The notes under the pieces were generated by a model that saw nothing but the letters and a program-made list of their open reading frames with translations, was not told the DNA's origin and ran no database searches. 64,000 nucleotides of DNA from the human T2T-CHM13v2.0 reference genome, Homo sapiens: assembly GCF_009914755.1 (NCBI RefSeq), contig NC_060936.1; one strand, 5' to 3'. A program made the position numbers and the translations under genes. Shown here in pieces: positions 45,662 to 53,180 of the stretch (the first letter of the stretch is position 1; every line of letters begins with the position of its first letter).

Positions 45662-45745
45662 CCCGGAGCCGCCGCAGGTCGCGCTGGGTCCGGCTCGGTG
45701 TCACTCCCGCTCCGGCTCCTCCTCGCCGCGGCCGAAGGGGGGAAA
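45662..45745 (-). other. CHD4: CHD4 non-coding exon 1 (TSS approximate); exon 2 begins at 44813
   Basis: GTGAG donor at 45657-45661; YY1-like GCCATTTT at 45743-45750 with TTTAAG about 25-30 bp upstream; exon 2 acceptor ACAG ends at 44814. Confidence 0.75.
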
Positions 45746-45955
45746 ATGGCTCCGGCTCCAGCGTCGCCTCTTAAAGGGCCTGAAACACCGGCCGGGAAAT
45801 CCCACCGCACAGGCCCCGCCCCCCCACGGACAGCCCATAATAACCTCAACCAACTCCAACCCCCCCCTTCCACTACCGCCACCCTCCTCCCCAGGTCTCC
45901 CGGGCAACCCCCGCCCCCTCGTCGCTCAGGCAACCACTGGCCACGCCCCCTTCGA

Positions 45956-45972
45956 GCGCGCGCGCGCGCGCG
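45956..45972. repeat. (GC)8 alternating tract
   Basis: gcgcgcgcgcgcgcgcg seen directly. Confidence 0.9.
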
Positions 45973-46030
45973 TCACCTGGGCAACCGCCCACCTCCTGGC
46001 CATCCCATAATACACACGGACACCCCCCCC

Positions 46031-46031
<1 letters not shown>

Positions 46032-46071
<40 letters not shown>

Positions 46072-46082
46072 CACACACACAC
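46032..46082. repeat. (CA)n microsatellite
   Basis: Seen directly, with one interruption. Confidence 0.95.
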
Positions 46083-47993
46083 CCTGCCCCCCCACATTTC
46101 ATACACATATGCCAGAGACTGCTGACATCTCAAAATATTGCAGACCTTTTGCAACTAACCCTCTTAGACATCCCATAATAGACATCCTTTGCCAACTTCT
46201 TCTTCACTCTTGGACCTAATGCTAACATCCCATAATAATTCATCACCCCTCCCTCCCCATGGCCATCCCATAATAAGCACCCCTCGCAGCACTTATGCCT
46301 CATATCCCATAATATTCAGCCCCATCCCCCACAGACATCCCATAATAACCATCCTTCATCCACCCCCAGTTTGATATCCCATAATAGTCAGAAACTCACC
46401 CCCCCCCATACTACAACAACGGACACTCGGCCTCCTCCCACACACATCCCGTAATAATCAGTCTCCCACTTTCTATACTGACATCCCATAATAACTAACC
46501 CCCTAGAGCTGCCCTCAGTCCCTGCAGGCCAGGGTCTAGAGGCTCACATCACCCCCAGCCTTCCCTCTTCTAGCTCCACAGCCTATAGTAAGTACCCCTC
46601 CTCTATCAAAAAGATAACCCATAATGATCAACAGCCCTACTGTCGCCCCACAGATGGACATCTAATCTCTTTTCCTCTAACACTGGAAAGCTATCCCATA
46701 ATAATTTTACTCTCCTACCCACATCCTGACATCCCATAATAATTGCAAGGAGCCCGTGGTCAACCAAACATACCATAATACTCCCAACACAACCCAGTGT
46801 CACATCCCATAATGCTTCATCTCCACTCTACCACCCCTATACCCTTCGAGCCAGGCATCCCATAATATTCATATTCTTCCCACCCCCATCTCCAGGCGCT
46901 GTCAGTCTATTCTAACACCCAGAGCAGGGAGGGCCAGGCAGGCTACCCACGCTTCCTTGTCCCCGCCCCCACTTGCACACACCTTAATCCCTTTCTGGGC
47001 CAAAGTAGTATCCTGGCAAAAAGCCTCCTGATGTCTGGGACCCCAGCTTCCCTCATACCATCATTTCCAGACACTCGGGGGCTGGGAGCCCACCTAGGGC
47101 CCCACCCAGTCCCACCAAAATCTAGGTATTTTCCAGATGCTTACCTCCAGCTCCTAAGTTTTGAGGAACACCAACCAACCAAAATACCAAGCTGACAGAT
47201 GAAACATTTACATGAAGTCTAATTCACCCTACAGCATCCCATAATAATTACCAACTCCCATCCAAAGACTATCTCTCAACATTCTAGCAATCCTCCCCCT
47301 CACCACATCCCCAGGTCAGGGATCTTTCACCAACACCCCCAGGCCATTCCTGGGGATGGACATCCCATCACGATGTGAACTCAGGTTCCTGCTCTATACA
47401 CACCAAGAGTGAAGGCCTGCCCTCCCGCTACTCACCACTACTCATGTTCATTCAACCTGTGTTGACAGAGTACCTAGCAAGGCCGAGCTCCGCACCATGG
47501 AGAATCAAGGAAGACCAGGGGGCCTCCCTTCAAAAAGCATAAGCAACCAAGCAAACTATGATACACGACAGAATGGTGCCAAGGGAGAACTGCTGAGCAC
47601 TGTTTCCCAATTTCCTGTTACAGAAAATAAAATCCCACTGGTTCCAAGAGAGAACATATCCCAATAAGATTTATCGTGGTCCTTCTAGAGGCTGGAAGAT
47701 GATACTTAAAGGATTTATGGGTATAGACCATAGTCAACATGATCTCCTATCTGTTCCCTACTTACTAGGGGATTTTTCTTGGAAAGCAATGTTCATCCAT
47801 CCAGCATTCCTAATACTGAAATCCTATAATATGTTCATGTCCTTCCTTCTTAAGAGACTCCACAATATACCAGCATTGTTTCCCTCATTCTTGAACACCA
47901 AATCCTGCTTATCCTCAATGTCCCATATTTTTCAGGCACTTTCCCATTTTATATCCTGAAGTCTCATAGTATCTCCAATGGCCTCCATCCTCA

Positions 47994-48149
<156 letters not shown>

Positions 48150-48755
48150 TCACAAGGTCAGGAGTTCAAGACCAGCCTGGCCAAAATGGTGAAACCCCGT
48201 CTCTACTAAACATACAAAAATTAGCCTGACATGGTGGCACGTGCCTGTAATCCTAGCTACTCAAGGGCTGAGGCAGGAGAATTGCTTGAACCCAGGAGGT
48301 AGAGGTTGCAGGGAGCTGAGATTGCACCACTGCACTACAGCCTGGGCAACAGAGCAAGACTCTGCCTCAGAAAAAAAAAAAAAAAAAAAGAAGTCAGCAG
48401 TCCAGGAAACCTTCTACATTGAATTATGCCCCAAGGTAGCCCTCCAGCGTATACCATCTCCTTCCCTTATTATGCATACCCTCCAGCCACCCTATGGACC
48501 CAATCCTAGAAGCTGAAATAACCGAATTTTTTTTGTTTTGTTTTTTGTTTTTTTGAGAGACAGGGTCTCAGTGGCGCAATCACAGCTCACTGCAACCTCA
48601 ACCTCCTGGGCTCAAGTGATCATCCCACCTCAGCCTCCCACCTGTAGCTGGAACCACGGGCATACACCACCACACCCAGCTAATTTTTAAATTTATTGTA
48701 GAGACGGGGTTTCACTATGTTGCCAGGCTGATCTTGAACTTCTGGACTCAAGTGA

Positions 48756-48964
<209 letters not shown>

Positions 48965-50883
48965 TAGTAGAGACGGGGTTTCTCCATATTGGTCAGGCTG
49001 GTCTCGAACGCCCAAACTCAGGTGATCCGCCCGCCTCGGCCTCCCAAAGTGCTGGGATTACAGGCGTGAGCCACTGCGCCTGGCCAGGAAAGAGCCCAAT
49101 CTTAAAACCCTTTGGCCCTCAGAAAACCTAACCCATCAGCCTGTCACTTTTCCCTTTTCCTGACTCCCAGAGATTCAGGACCTGAGTGAAAACCAATGTC
49201 CCAGCACCACTGCCTTGCTGCCCTAACCCCAGGCCAAGGATAATGTCTCCCTCTGCTCATGTACCTTTTTTGCATGGGTCCAAGACCTATGGAAGTGGGA
49301 CGAGTTGAAAAGAAACTTGGACTTCCTTGTAGAAAGGGCCCTTTACTAACCAGTAGTGAGTGGGATGAACCTCATGCCATCTCTGCATTACCCTTCTCAT
49401 CTCATTTTCCTAGAGGAAGGCCTGGCCAGATGGCTCTCCCCTTCTCTAGGATCCAAGGGACTGGAGAACTGGTACAAAGAAATGAGTTCAGGGAAGGCAA
49501 GAGCTTGCCTCAGGGAATTACAATCCCCCTGCTCCTGAGCAGAGCACCAGGGATGCAGACAAGTCTTCCGCTAGCTCCTGGCTGACTCTGTAGACCCACT
49601 AGCATTCCACATTTAACTCTCCTCATCTTAGGACTGGAGTTTTTGGCATCAAAGACATCAGGTCCTGTCAAAAGCTCCCTGTCACCTTTGAAGTAGGTGT
49701 TTTCTTTTTCCAACCTTCCCTTCAGCTCCCTGGCCCACCCTCTTGCTGCACTCATTGTGGCAAGCGGGCCATTCTCCCCCGTTCTGCAAGGCTTCCAGTT
49801 TCCCTCGTTAAATGCTCTCGACATCAAGACTGGGCCCCATTTACTTACCCAAGCCCTCTCCCATACTTACTCTGAGTACTAAGAATGAAACTTGTGTTCC
49901 ACAATGGGGGGTGAGGAGGCAGCTCTTTTCAGATACCATGATGTGGGGACACCTCCTTTCAGGGAAGTTTCTCCTTCCTACAGAGGGCTGCCAGATGCCT
50001 ATTGTGCGCTCTTCTACCCTCATTTCTCCAGGGGATCCAGCCTGTCTCTGGGCCTCAAATTCCCTTCTGCAATATCTCCATCTGCCCATACCCATACTCT
50101 CATTTCCACAGTGATCTGTCCATATAAACCAGTAAGAGAGCGTTTGGGTAGTCACAGCCTCCTGCCTGTGACTAAAAATATCCACATTTTATTTATCCAT
50201 ATATCCTTTGTCCACTACTCACCCTGTGTCCCTATTCCTGTAGGTTCTACCCACTTCTTCCTTTGCTGCTCTTGCTCCCCACCTCTCCCTAACACCACAA
50301 CAAGGAGAAAGTTAAAATCCCTTCCTCTCTTCTTGAGTTCCAGAAAGGGCTCGGAGGTGTGTGCTGGTGTGTTGCTTTGTAGTCCTTATGCTTCTACGCT
50401 TCCCCTCCCTCCTCTAGCCCCGTGCTACCCTCCCAGATAAATTATAAATAAACCACTAGCATGACTGGCCCAGGGAGACTAAGGGTGGCATAATCTCCTA
50501 ATTAATGCACCCAGGAGGGCAGCCTCTCTAGCCAGTTACCTTAGAGTTCTGTTTTCATCCCATGGTACAGAAGAACCTAGAACAACACTCAGAGTGGGTT
50601 GTTCATGGAGTTTTTAGCATTTGCTCTATAATTCCTCTCCTTACACCTCTGTTTTGTGTGAACCTGAAAAACTCTGTTCATAAGAGGTCCAAGGGGCCAC
50701 AGTGTTCTCCTGCTCTGTCTGAAAAGGGGATTTTGGGAGACAACGAGGGAAGCAAAGCCACAGTGACAGTGCACTCCAAAGGCTAGACAGGATGCAGATC
50801 ACGTGGGGCTTGGGGGTGACATGCCAGGTGTTTGTATCTCAGGAGGCAACCTACTATCTGTTTTTTGGGTGTGACTGCAAGGT

Positions 50884-50985
50884 AGCAAAGCGCTCCGTGC
50901 ACAACCCCCCAACCTAAGCAAAGTGCTCCGTGCACAACCCCCCAACCTAAGCAAAGTGCTCCGTGCACAATCCCCCAACCTGAGC
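50884..50985. repeat. 33-bp minisatellite, 3 copies (AGCAAAGTGCTCCGTGCACAACCCCCCAACCTA)
   Basis: Units start at 50884, 50917 and 50950, with 1-2 mismatches each relative to the middle unit. Confidence 0.95.
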
Positions 50986-51402
50986 TATGGTCCCCAGGCT
51001 CAAACCCAGGAAGACAAAGATGGAAGGGAGACGGGTACTATCGCCATCCATGACTACTACTCCCTTTGGTATGCCACCCGGCCAGAACATCTCAGTTCTC
51101 ATTTGCAGTGCAGCTCTGCAGGCCCCGGACTCACAGGGCAACCCTGTAGCGCACAAGCTGTTTAAAGGACCCAGGTGTCCAGGGTTCAGATTTGGCTCGC
51201 TGGAGCCTGCCCCAGGGGCCCCTTCAAACAGCTGTCACCAAAGAAACCTCTCCAGCCAGTTACTCCTGCCAGGCCTCAGGTCCGACTCCAGGGCTCACCC
51301 TACCCTCCCCAGCTCCTTCCCTCCCTCTTCCTTCCCTCCCCCTCCCCACCCCTCCCTAGAGTTTCACCTCTCCTGGACAGCCCCACCCAGCTGTGCAGGG
51401 CA

Positions 51403-52420
51403 CATCCCATAATAATCCTCCTCGCTAGCCTTACCCCCCCAAAAAAAGAGAGGCGGCCATCCCATAATAGCCACCCACAAGAGACATTCCGCGGTGACCG
51501 CCCCCTCCCTGCAGAGCTGCTGGGAGCAGCCATCCCATAATAGCTGGCCGCCTGTTTTACTGGTTACGGCTGTGGAGGGAGCTGGAGAGGAAATGGAGGG
51601 GAGGGGGGAGGGGAGAAAGATCCAGGGCCCCCACTTTGTGGGATGCAGGGAGAAGGGGAAGGACGGTGGTATAAGGGGCTAGGGTGCAGAGGAGGCCGTC
51701 GTGCAGGTGGAAGGTGTGATCCACTGGCCACCACCACCCTGCTTTAGGGCTTTCTCCCCATTCGCCAGGGGCTACTTTTCTCCTCAGCACCCCGGAGGTG
51801 GCTGCTAGTTAGGGGAGAAGCCCGGGATGGGTTGAGGTGCCCAAAGTCTGTGTGTGTAGGGAGATGGGTTTCAGGTGTTCCTCTTGGGGAGTCTGAGAGA
51901 GGACGGTGACCTTAGAAAGGATGGTAGGCGAGTAAGGGTTGAGGAGGTGGGGGGGCTGGAGAAGAGCTCCTCAGGCCCTCCCCATTCTGCACCACCATCC
52001 CATAATAATCCCCCCAGCCCCACTCCCCCTCCCACACACGACATCCCATAATATCTTCTGGAGAAGCAGTCCCCGCAGTAGGTACAAAGAGCTATCCCAT
52101 AATAAGCTCCCCCACCCCCACTCACCACCCCCCCCAACTTGGCCCCCCCTCAGTCACATGCAGCCGGTGCCATCCCCCGCTGCTCCCCCCTCTGGCCACC
52201 GAAGGCCTTGCCAGCCCATAATACTCTTGCCTCTGGTCGCAGGAGGCCTCCAGCCCATAATACTCCCTTCCACCACCACCCCCCCTTCCCGCCCCGCACC
52301 CCTTCCTCCCGCCTCCAGTTGGAGCCGGGCCTCACCAACCCATAATATTCCCCAGTCTCCTAAGGCTGTTCCAGCCCATAATACTCTCCCTGTCTCCTAA
52401 GGCCTCTCCATCCCATAATA
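51403..52420 (+). promoter_or_regulatory. Distal (about -6 kb) CHD4 enhancer: cluster of 11 CCCATAATA (ZNF410-type) motifs
   Basis: Copies start at 51403, 51458, 51531, 51996, 52042, 52093, 52212, 52251, 52336, 52372, 52409; same orientation as the proximal cluster. Confidence 0.92.
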
Positions 52421-52999
52421 CTGCCAGACGCCTGACCTGTGGGCCAAACCCCAGCCAGTTCCACACATCGAGGCTGTGTCAGCGCCGCAGGCCTCCCTCC
52501 CTGTCCCTCCTCCCTCCCTGGTCGGCGCTTTCCCTCCCAGGCTTTCTCCCGCCCTCCTGCCCTGGGCCCCTCTCCCAGCCCCACCCCGTGCCTGCCTGGG
52601 CCCTCGCTTCCCCTCCAGCCTCCTCCCTTGCCCTTTCTCCATTGCTTGGTTCTCCAGCCAGCTTCCCCCTGTCTTGCACTTTCCTACCTCCTCCTTGGTC
52701 TGTGGGATGGACATGGGCCTAGTGGGGAGAGAGTGCCCCCAGAGGGCAACAGGCCAGTCGCTGCCCCTAAAGACTGCCTGCTTGACCTAGCACCGTGGAA
52801 ACCTGCCCAGCCTGCCTTGCTCACCACCTCCCGTGGTCCTACGTCTGATTGCTGGCAGAGCTCTGTCTGGGTGAGGAAAGAGCCCTTCAGGTCTTCGGGA
52901 AACACTCCCCTTGGGCATCACTGGCAGAGTTGATCAATGGCCTCGCCTCCCCATGCTCTTGTTGGAAAGAAGGAGCTCCCACTTATGGGGCATCTAGAG

Positions 53000-53180
53000 T
53001 ACCTTTCAAAGGTGGGCTCCTTGACCCTCACAATAACCCAATAAGTGGATATTATGAGCCCCATTTCACAGAGAAATGGGAGAAAACAGAGGCTCAGAGA
53101 GGTCAAGAAATTTGTTGAAGCCACATTGCCAAGAAGTGAGAGAGTTGAAATTAATGCCCAGATTTGTTTGATTCCAAAGT
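53000..53180 (-). mobile_element. MIR fragment
   Basis: ccccatttcacaga...gaaaacagaggctcagagaggtcaag MIR core. Confidence 0.7.

What the first reader, a model, noticed from the sequence alone, without database searches (positions are those of the whole stretch)
51403..52420. Second, distal array of 11 motifs split into 3 + 8 sub-clusters
Seen: 11 copies with an invariant CCCATAATA core, the same polarity as the promoter array, 5.7-6.7 kb upstream of the TSS. The sub-clusters are separated by a ~450-bp G-rich spacer, whereas the motifs sit in C-rich sequence. The far end favours CAGCCC/CAACCC variants. Established (from memory): this is the ZNF410-bound CHD4 enhancer.
Basis: partly seen in the sequence, partly recalled or inferred. 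Interest (0 to 1): 0.75.

Follow-up and report, generated by a model that had tools for sequence, protein, structure and literature searches.

The report
Known ZNF410 enhancer upstream of CHD4
This is the already published cluster of eleven ZNF410 binding sites about 6 kb upstream of the human CHD4 gene, an enhancer that helps this factor switch on CHD4 and so keep fetal haemoglobin silent; the sequence pattern is real but not new.

Summary
There are 11 exact CCCATAATA cores at 51406-52412, with their 12-mers spanning 51403-52420. All 11 lie on the + strand, as do the 13 cores of the promoter array: 24 of 24 in the window, against 0.36 expected by shuffling. The sites lie 5662-6679 bp from the CHD4 TSS. 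A 453-bp spacer (G 181, C 93) separates 3 sites from 8, and the site-bearing blocks are C-rich. Four of the last five sites are CAG/CAA variants.

The interpretation also holds. Three preprints describe this element as the ZNF410-bound CHD4 -6 kb (distal) enhancer with 11 motifs. They already report occupancy, footprints, deletions, single-motif mutations and motif inversions.

- The "8" is really 3 + 2 + 3.
- The five far-end sites sit in 37-39-bp tandem units, so their variants are probably inherited together.
- All variation falls at positions that the crystal structure reads weakly.
- A chr22 minisatellite carries 11 same-strand copies of the core with a different 5' triplet.

Verdict: real, functional, already known. 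Interest is low.

The parts
51403..51542 (+). Near sub-cluster: three consensus 12-mers CATCCCATAATA at 51403, 51458 and 51531 (start-to-start 55 and 73 bp). By inference this is ChIP 'peak3' of Xu et al.
   Evidence: The peak assignment is inferred.
51543..51995 (.). 453-bp spacer with no ZNF410-like site. It is G-rich on the + strand in two blocks (51543-51700, 51801-51960) around a neutral middle.
   Evidence: The only hit at 3 or fewer mismatches is CATCCCACAAAG at 51634 on the - strand, with 3 mismatches.
51996..52104 (+). Middle group: CATCCCATAATA at 51996 and 52042, TATCCCATAATA at 52093 (spacing 46 and 51 bp). By inference this is 'peak4'.
   Evidence: The peak assignment is inferred.
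52105..52211 (.). C-rich tract between site groups. It contains the RefSeq 'silencer' feature 52117-52186 listed in the hub's table.
   Evidence: (sequence) and the hub annotation. Not studied further.
52189..52265 (+). Two CAGCCCATAATA sites (52212, 52251) inside a 39-bp tandem unit of 1.9 copies. By inference these are the two distal motifs that lie outside the ChIP peaks.
   Evidence: TRF score 108, 84% matches; family D10.
52328..52422 (+). Far-end triplet CAACCCATAATA (52336), CAGCCCATAATA (52372) and CATCCCATAATA (52409) inside a 37-bp tandem unit of 2.6 copies. By inference this is 'peak5', the published 'switch' motifs.
   Evidence: TRF score 120; D10. The peak5 assignment is inferred: a 120-bp probe is said to hold all three peak5 motifs. 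This triplet spans 85 bp, while the triplet at the other end spans 140 bp.
45831..47246 (+). Partner array at the CHD4 promoter (the proximal enhancer). It has 13 exact cores plus 3 one-mismatch 12-mers (46445, 46769, 46803), 16 sites in all, on the same strand.
52790..52870 (+). First exon of the predicted lncRNA LOC105369631. Its TSS lies 370 bp beyond the last motif and points away from CHD4. It is a possible enhancer-derived transcript.
   Evidence: Hub annotation. Xu et al. mention putative eRNAs from CAGE at the CHD4 regulatory regions. The link between the two is my inference.

Best explanation
This is the distal (-6 kb) enhancer of human CHD4, a homotypic cluster of 11 same-strand binding sites for the five-finger protein ZNF410.

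From the papers: ZNF410 binds each roughly 12-15-bp site as a monomer through fingers 1-5. Single sites elsewhere in the genome are hardly occupied. The local density of sites here and at the promoter array gives high, cooperative occupancy, which keeps the chromatin open and H3K27-acetylated. The element adds about 20% of CHD4 mRNA in K562 cells, additively with the promoter array. CHD4/NuRD dosage in turn keeps the fetal globin genes silent. Three motifs at one end ('peak5') control occupancy of the whole distal element.

Shown here from sequence:
- the number, strand, spacing and variants of the sites;
- the rarity of such clustering in the genome;
- all site-to-site variation falls at positions 1, 2, 4, 14 and 15 of the 15-bp element, while positions 3 and 5-13 are invariant in 11 of 11 sites.

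Inferred here:
- peak5 is the far-end triplet 52336-52420;
- the five far-end sites arose by tandem duplication of a 37-39-bp unit, so the shared CAG/CAA variants are inherited rather than independently favoured.
For: Sequence in the window:
- 24 of 24 cores are on the + strand against 0.36 expected, and 11 of them lie at 51403-52420.
- 27 sites match the 12-mer with 1 or fewer mismatches, 16 in the promoter array and 11 distal. This equals the 16 + 11 = 27 of Vinjamur et al..

Genome:
- The assembly holds 423 exact 12-mers, against 166 for the reversed control. Fifteen of them lie in these two arrays.
- There are 34 same-strand core pairs 20-50 bp apart genome-wide, and 12 of them are at CHD4, 6 in each array.

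Position profile: positions 3 and 5-13 are invariant in 11 of 11 sites, and position 4 is T in 7, G in 3 and A in 1. Lan et al. report base-specific contacts from A3 to T12. T4 has only a weak serine hydrogen bond, and they say serine may accommodate other bases. Xu et al. find A10 and A11 essential.

Function, from the papers:
- ChIP-seq and CUT&RUN occupancy.
- Distal deletion lowers CHD4 mRNA by 20%, proximal deletion by 32% and the double deletion by 57%.
- Motif mutation, motif inversion and peak5 'switch' experiments.

Tandem origin of the far end: TRF finds 39 bp x 1.9 copies and 37 bp x 2.6 copies. Flanks of the five far-end sites average 0.44 identity, against 0.31 for all pairs, and only 5 of 10000 random groups of five reach that value.
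Against: Nothing contradicts the identification. Several limits apply.

- Binding, accessibility and enhancer activity are taken from preprint text. Figures were not held and bioRxiv supplements were closed, so probe and peak coordinates could not be checked.
- The effect of the distal element alone is modest (20%).
- Xu et al. found that deleting peak5 had little effect on peaks 3 and 4, although mutating its motifs did. The 'switch' mechanism is therefore unsettled.
- Cooperative binding was not reproduced on naked DNA or on a reconstituted nucleosome.
- Motif density alone is not sufficient. GALNT18 intron 1 has 6 motifs and is unbound, which Xu et al. attribute to an A10C variant.
- The flank-similarity test for tandem origin is ungapped and could be inflated by the shared C-rich composition.
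Confidence: 0.97

Rival explanations
1. The array is a decayed minisatellite. On this view the repeated core is a by-product of tandem duplication, with no sequence-specific function of its own.
For: Five of the 11 sites sit in recognisable 37-39-bp tandem units. A true 45-bp minisatellite on chr22 carries the same 9-mer core 11 times.
Against: The core is invariant in 11 of 11 sites, while the flanks have drifted to about 31-44% ungapped identity. That pattern points to constraint on the core. Six sites show no tandem unit. The papers report ZNF410-dependent accessibility and reporter activity, with loss on AA-to-GG mutation. They also report conservation of motif number and spacing in mouse, pig and dog.
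Confidence: 0.01
2. The element is chiefly the promoter of the + strand lncRNA LOC105369631 (TSS 52790). On this view its effect on CHD4 is secondary, and the far-end triplet acts as the promoter-proximal element of that transcript.
For: The TSS in the hub table lies 370 bp beyond the last site and on the same strand as the motifs (hub annotation). Xu et al. note putative eRNAs by CAGE at the CHD4 regulatory regions. The site group nearest this TSS is the one inferred to be the 'switch'.
Against: The lncRNA model is only predicted. Lan et al. report that CHD4 is the only gene measurably activated by ZNF410. Distal deletion lowers CHD4 mRNA. Deleting peak5 left peaks 3 and 4 open. No transcription data were available here.
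Confidence: 0.05
3. A different factor that reads the A/T-rich half (ATAATA / TATTATGG) is the real activator, and ZNF410 is only a passenger.
For: None from the calls. The idea is raised only because short A/T-rich cores are shared by many factors (general knowledge).
Against: Invariance extends over the C-rich half as well, with positions 5-7 CCC in 11 of 11 sites. This matches the ZF3-ZF4 contacts in the crystal structure. The ZF1-5 domain has a KD of 22 nM for the consensus. Reporter activity of every peak depends on ZNF410, comparing wild-type and knockout cells.
Confidence: 0.01

Closest known systems
CHD4 -6 kb / distal enhancer bound by ZNF410 (Lan et al. 2021 Mol Cell; Vinjamur et al. 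2021 Nat Genet; Xu et al. 2024 preprint)
   Same: It is this element: the same gene, distance, number of motifs (11), motif sequence and orientation.
   Different: Nothing of substance differs. The window is the T2T-CHM13 copy, whereas the papers used hg19 or hg38. The journal references are known to me only from a reference list; I read the preprint versions.
CHD4 promoter / proximal ZNF410 array (window 45831-47246)
   Same: Same motif, same strand and C-rich setting, with runs of sites 33-39 bp apart. It is bound by the same factor and acts additively with the distal element.
   Different: It has 16 sites and abuts the TSS (90-1505 bp). It has a stronger effect on CHD4, a 32% loss against 20%. 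It carries TAT and internal variants rather than CAG/CAA, apart from CAG at 45831. No long alignable homology to the distal array appears beyond the sites themselves: the families are 18-50 nt long and centred on the motif.
GALNT18 intron 1 ZNF410 motif cluster
   Same: It is the only other multi-motif window reported by PWM scan, with 6 motifs in 3 kb.
   Different: Each motif carries A10C, which nearly abolishes reporter activity. In keeping with that, it did not appear in my search for exact CCCATAATA pairs.
ZFP64 site cluster at the MLL (KMT2A) promoter
   Same: It is a homotypic cluster of sites for one C2H2 zinc-finger factor that gives strong occupancy at one chromatin-regulator gene. 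Both 2020 preprints cite it as the nearest analogue.
   Different: ZFP64 has thousands of further ChIP-seq peaks. I did not examine it.

Membership tests
ZNF410-bound CHD4 distal (-6 kb) enhancer | Lies about 6 kb upstream of the CHD4 TSS | tested here: met
   The sites lie 5662-6679 bp from the TSS at 45741 (the TSS comes from the hub's gene table). Vinjamur et al. place it '6 kb upstream'.
ZNF410-bound CHD4 distal (-6 kb) enhancer | 11 ZNF410 motif instances within about 1.5 kb | tested here: met
   11 sites with 1 or fewer mismatches to CATCCCATAATA lie in 1018 bp. The papers give 11 motifs.
ZNF410-bound CHD4 distal (-6 kb) enhancer | Sites keep the bases needed for binding (A10 and A11; base-specific contacts A3 to T12) | tested here: met
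   Positions 3 and 5-13 are invariant in 11 of 11 sites, and only T4 varies within the contacted stretch.
ZNF410-bound CHD4 distal (-6 kb) enhancer | All motifs have the same orientation as the proximal array | tested here: met
   24 of 24 cores are on the + strand. Xu et al. state that the clusters have the same orientation.
ZNF410-bound CHD4 distal (-6 kb) enhancer | Motif density has no counterpart elsewhere in the genome | tested here: inconclusive
   12 of 34 same-strand core pairs (20-50 bp apart) genome-wide are at CHD4. However, a chr22 minisatellite holds 11 cores as ACACCCATAATA, which differs at three 5' positions.
ZNF410-bound CHD4 distal (-6 kb) enhancer | ZNF410 occupancy in vivo | not testable with these tools
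   Reported by ChIP-seq and CUT&RUN, with 77-fold enrichment.
ZNF410-bound CHD4 distal (-6 kb) enhancer | Enhancer activity on CHD4 | not testable with these tools
   Reported: 20% loss of CHD4 mRNA on deletion, additive with the proximal element, and ZNF410-dependent luciferase activity of the peaks.
ZNF410-bound CHD4 distal (-6 kb) enhancer | Conservation of the cluster in mammals | not testable with these tools
Conservation is reported for mouse, pig and dog, and not for zebra finch, frog or zebrafish.

The most novel reading that the evidence does not exclude
The far-end triplet (52336-52420), which I infer to be the published 'switch' motifs, may act as the promoter-proximal element of the divergent + strand transcript that starts 370 bp away (LOC105369631, TSS 52790). 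ZNF410-driven transcription from there would then open the remaining eight sites. This could explain two published results: mutating the triplet closes the whole distal enhancer while deleting it does not, and motif orientation matters. Separately, the five far-end sites would be one tandem-duplication lineage that carries its T4 variants by descent.
Probability: 0.1. Interest if true: 0.35.

Novelty: already known. Interest (0 to 1): 0.08.

Why it matters
The element matters biologically. According to the papers read, it is half of the only known case of a mammalian activator with a single measurable direct target gene (Lan et al.). [quoted passage not shown]

As a scan finding it adds nothing new. 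The motif count, position, orientation, sub-clusters, per-motif mutations, inversions and deletions are all in print.

- the 3 + 3 + 2 + 3 anatomy;
- the tandem-unit origin of the far-end variants;
- variation confined to the weakly read positions.

Tried and rejected
- **Inverted or degenerate sites in the G-rich spacer.** I scanned 51000-53000 on both strands with up to 3 mismatches. The only extra hit has 3 mismatches, at 51634 on the - strand. Rejected.
- **Spacer as an inverted copy of the C-rich flanks.** The only match is a 20-nt, 80% low-complexity pair, 51338-51357 with 51588-51607. No support.
- **Distal array as a segmental copy of the promoter array.** The repeat families shared between the two are 18-50 nt long and centred on the motif. 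There is no evidence of a larger duplication.
- **Full genome-wide cluster scan.** Not possible, because the assembly gives no file. I used gapped pair patterns instead. The reversed-pattern controls give similar genome totals (46 and 24), so pair counts as such are not enriched. Only their concentration at CHD4 and chr22 stands out.
- **Affinity as the explanation for the critical 3' motif of peak5.** The idea is that this motif is critical because it is the only consensus 12-mer of that triplet (52409). It is weakened by the report that the 3' motif is also the critical one in peaks 3 and 4. There, all three motifs are consensus, or the 3' one is the TAT variant.
- **Supplements.** bioRxiv supplements and all figures were unavailable, so peak and probe coordinates are inferred.

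Full report
**Observation**

- The 9-mer CCCATAATA occurs 24 times in the 64-kb window. All 24 are on the + strand and none is on the - strand. Dinucleotide-preserving shuffles give a mean of 0.36, and 0 of 100 shuffles reach 24.
- Thirteen copies lie at 45834-47238, just upstream of the CHD4 TSS. The TSS is at 45741 on the - strand, from the hub's table.
- Eleven copies lie at 51406-52412. Their 12-mers span 51403-52420, which is 5662-6679 bp from the TSS.
- With one mismatch allowed to CATCCCATAATA, the counts become 16 in the promoter array and 11 distal.
- No further site with 2 or fewer mismatches lies in 51000-53000 on either strand.

**Anatomy**

Three consensus sites (51403, 51458, 51531) are followed by a 453-bp spacer, 51543-51995.
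- The spacer has G 181 and C 93. Its G-richness sits in two blocks, with GC skew +0.52 and +0.59, around a neutral 100-bp middle.
- The site-bearing blocks and both outer flanks are C-rich, with skew from -0.37 to -0.55.

The remaining eight sites fall into three groups, not one:
- 51996, 52042 and 52093;
- 52212 and 52251;
- 52336, 52372 and 52409.

Variants of the first triplet of the 12-mer are TAT at 52093, CAG at 52212, 52251 and 52372, and CAA at 52336.

**What it is**

A literature search (71 papers hold both 'ZNF410' and 'CHD4') leads to three preprints that describe this element directly.
- Lan et al. (10.1101/2020.08.31.274324; passages only) derive the motif CATCCCATAATA from ChIP-seq. 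They count 434 perfect instances in the genome. [quoted passage not shown]
- Vinjamur et al. (10.1101/2020.08.31.272856; passages only) name it the CHD4 -6 kb enhancer. They report 11 motifs (16 at the promoter, 27 in all), 77-fold CUT&RUN enrichment and open chromatin, and a figure legend lists a cleavage-frequency (footprint) track. The only other window with more than two motifs is GALNT18 intron 1, which has 6 and is unbound.
- Xu et al. [quoted passage not shown]

My counts of 16 + 11 match. The journal versions (Mol Cell 2021; Nat Genet 2021) are known to me only from a reference list. I saw no figures or supplements, and bioRxiv supplements were closed.

**How it works (from the papers)**
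- ZNF410 is a monomer in solution (section heading).
- Its five fingers read a 15-bp element, with ZF5 on positions 1-3 and ZF1 on positions 13-15. Base-specific contacts run from A3 to T12, and the KD for the consensus is 22 nM. A10 and A11 are essential.
- Single sites in the genome are almost never occupied, whereas the clusters are.
- In K562 cells, deleting the distal element lowers CHD4 mRNA by about 20%. Deleting the proximal one lowers it by 32%, and deleting both by 57%, which is close to ZNF410 loss.
- Disrupting any single motif has minimal effect.
- Within a three-motif peak the 3' motif matters most. Inverting the motifs abolishes reporter activity, but inverting the whole fragment does not.
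- Mutating the three motifs of 'peak5' collapses occupancy and accessibility over all 11 sites, yet deleting peak5 does not.
- Cooperativity was not reproduced on naked DNA or on a reconstituted nucleosome, so its basis is open.

1. *Position profile.* In the 15-bp register, positions 3 and 5-13 are invariant in 11 of 11 distal sites. Variation is confined to positions 1, 2, 4, 14 and 15. T4, the position hit by the CAG/CAA variants, is the one contacted only by a weak serine hydrogen bond in the structure. The authors say serine may accommodate alternative bases. The variants are therefore expected to remain binding sites. This is inference, and no affinity data were seen.

2. *Tandem origin of the far end.*
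   - TRF finds a 39-bp unit of 1.9 copies at 52189-52265 and a 37-bp unit of 2.6 copies at 52328-52422.
   - The repeat finder groups four of these sites in a 35-nt family, D10.
   - Flanks of the five far-end sites, with the motif excluded, average 0.44 ungapped identity against 0.31 for all 351 pairs of the 27 sites. Only 5 of 10000 random groups of five reach that value.
   - The far-end preference for CAG/CAA is thus most simply inheritance within one duplication lineage.
   - Caveat: shared C-rich composition may inflate this test.

3. *Matching the groups to the ChIP peaks.* The 3 + 3 + 2 + 3 grouping fits Xu et al.'s account: three distal ChIP peaks with at least three motifs each, 22 motifs under peaks and 5 outside. 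I infer that peak5 is 52336-52420. It is at an end of the element, and a 120-bp probe is said to hold its three motifs. That triplet spans 85 bp, whereas the triplet at the other end spans 140 bp.

4. *Genome-wide rarity in this T2T assembly.*
   - The exact 12-mer occurs 423 times, against 166 for the reversed control. Fifteen of those are in the two CHD4 arrays.
   - Same-strand core pairs 20-50 bp apart number 34 genome-wide. Twelve are at CHD4, 8 are in one chr22 locus and 14 are scattered.
   - Pairs 51-81 bp apart number 23, of which 6 are at CHD4 and 7 at the chr22 locus.
   - The reversed controls give 46 and 24. The genome totals are therefore unremarkable, and only the concentration stands out.

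**Noticed on the way**

The chr22 locus (chr22:50114554-50115078; L001) is a 45-bp minisatellite of about 15.5 copies. It carries 11 same-strand copies of ACACCCATAATA.
- It keeps positions 5-13, including the AA dinucleotide, but lacks A3, the ZF5 contact.
- Lan et al. report that ZF1-4 alone still binds in EMSA, so weak binding is conceivable.
- None of the passages I read mentions this locus. The Motif-Cluster paper has 0 occurrences of 'chr22' or 'minisatellite'.
- Lan et al. say that including multi-mapping reads revealed no further sites.

**Rivals**
- A functionless minisatellite is excluded by the invariant core amid diverged flanks and by the published mutagenesis.
- A promoter role for the predicted + strand lncRNA LOC105369631 (TSS 52790, 370 bp past the last site) is not excluded. 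Xu et al. mention putative eRNAs. There is no direct evidence for it.
- A different activator reading the A/T-rich half is countered by the invariant CCC and by the ZNF410 knockout data.

**Verdict**

Novelty: already known. Interest: low.

Noticed in passing
L001 (G000 chr22:50113800-50115800), array at chr22:50114554-50115078, - strand: A 45-bp minisatellite of about 15.5 copies holds 11 same-strand copies of ACACCCATAATA. It has the exact 9-mer ZNF410 core, including the essential AA, but a different 5' triplet, so the A3 contact is lost. By exact core, it is the only locus in the pair searches with several chained core pairs, apart from the CHD4 arrays. It is not mentioned in the passages I read.
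   Followed up: partly
window 52790-52870 (+): The predicted lncRNA LOC105369631 starts 370 bp beyond the last ZNF410 site and points away from CHD4. It may be the enhancer's own transcript. Xu et al. mention putative eRNAs by CAGE.
   Followed up: no
window 50884-50985: A 33-bp tandem repeat of 3.1 copies with 95% matches lies about 400 bp before the distal array. It is unrelated in sequence to the ZNF410 units.
   Followed up: no
window 46032-46082: An (AC)26 microsatellite lies inside the promoter ZNF410 array, directly after the site at 46001.
   Followed up: no
window 48000-49100: Several long inverted repeat pairs (arms of up to 86 nt, 73-92% complementary) lie between the two arrays. 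The hub lists 48657-49093 as masked repeat. By recall the sequence looks like Alu elements in opposite orientations.
   Followed up: no
window 52117-52186: The RefSeq 'silencer' feature in the hub table falls in the C-rich tract between the middle site group and the CAG pair, inside the enhancer.
   Followed up: no
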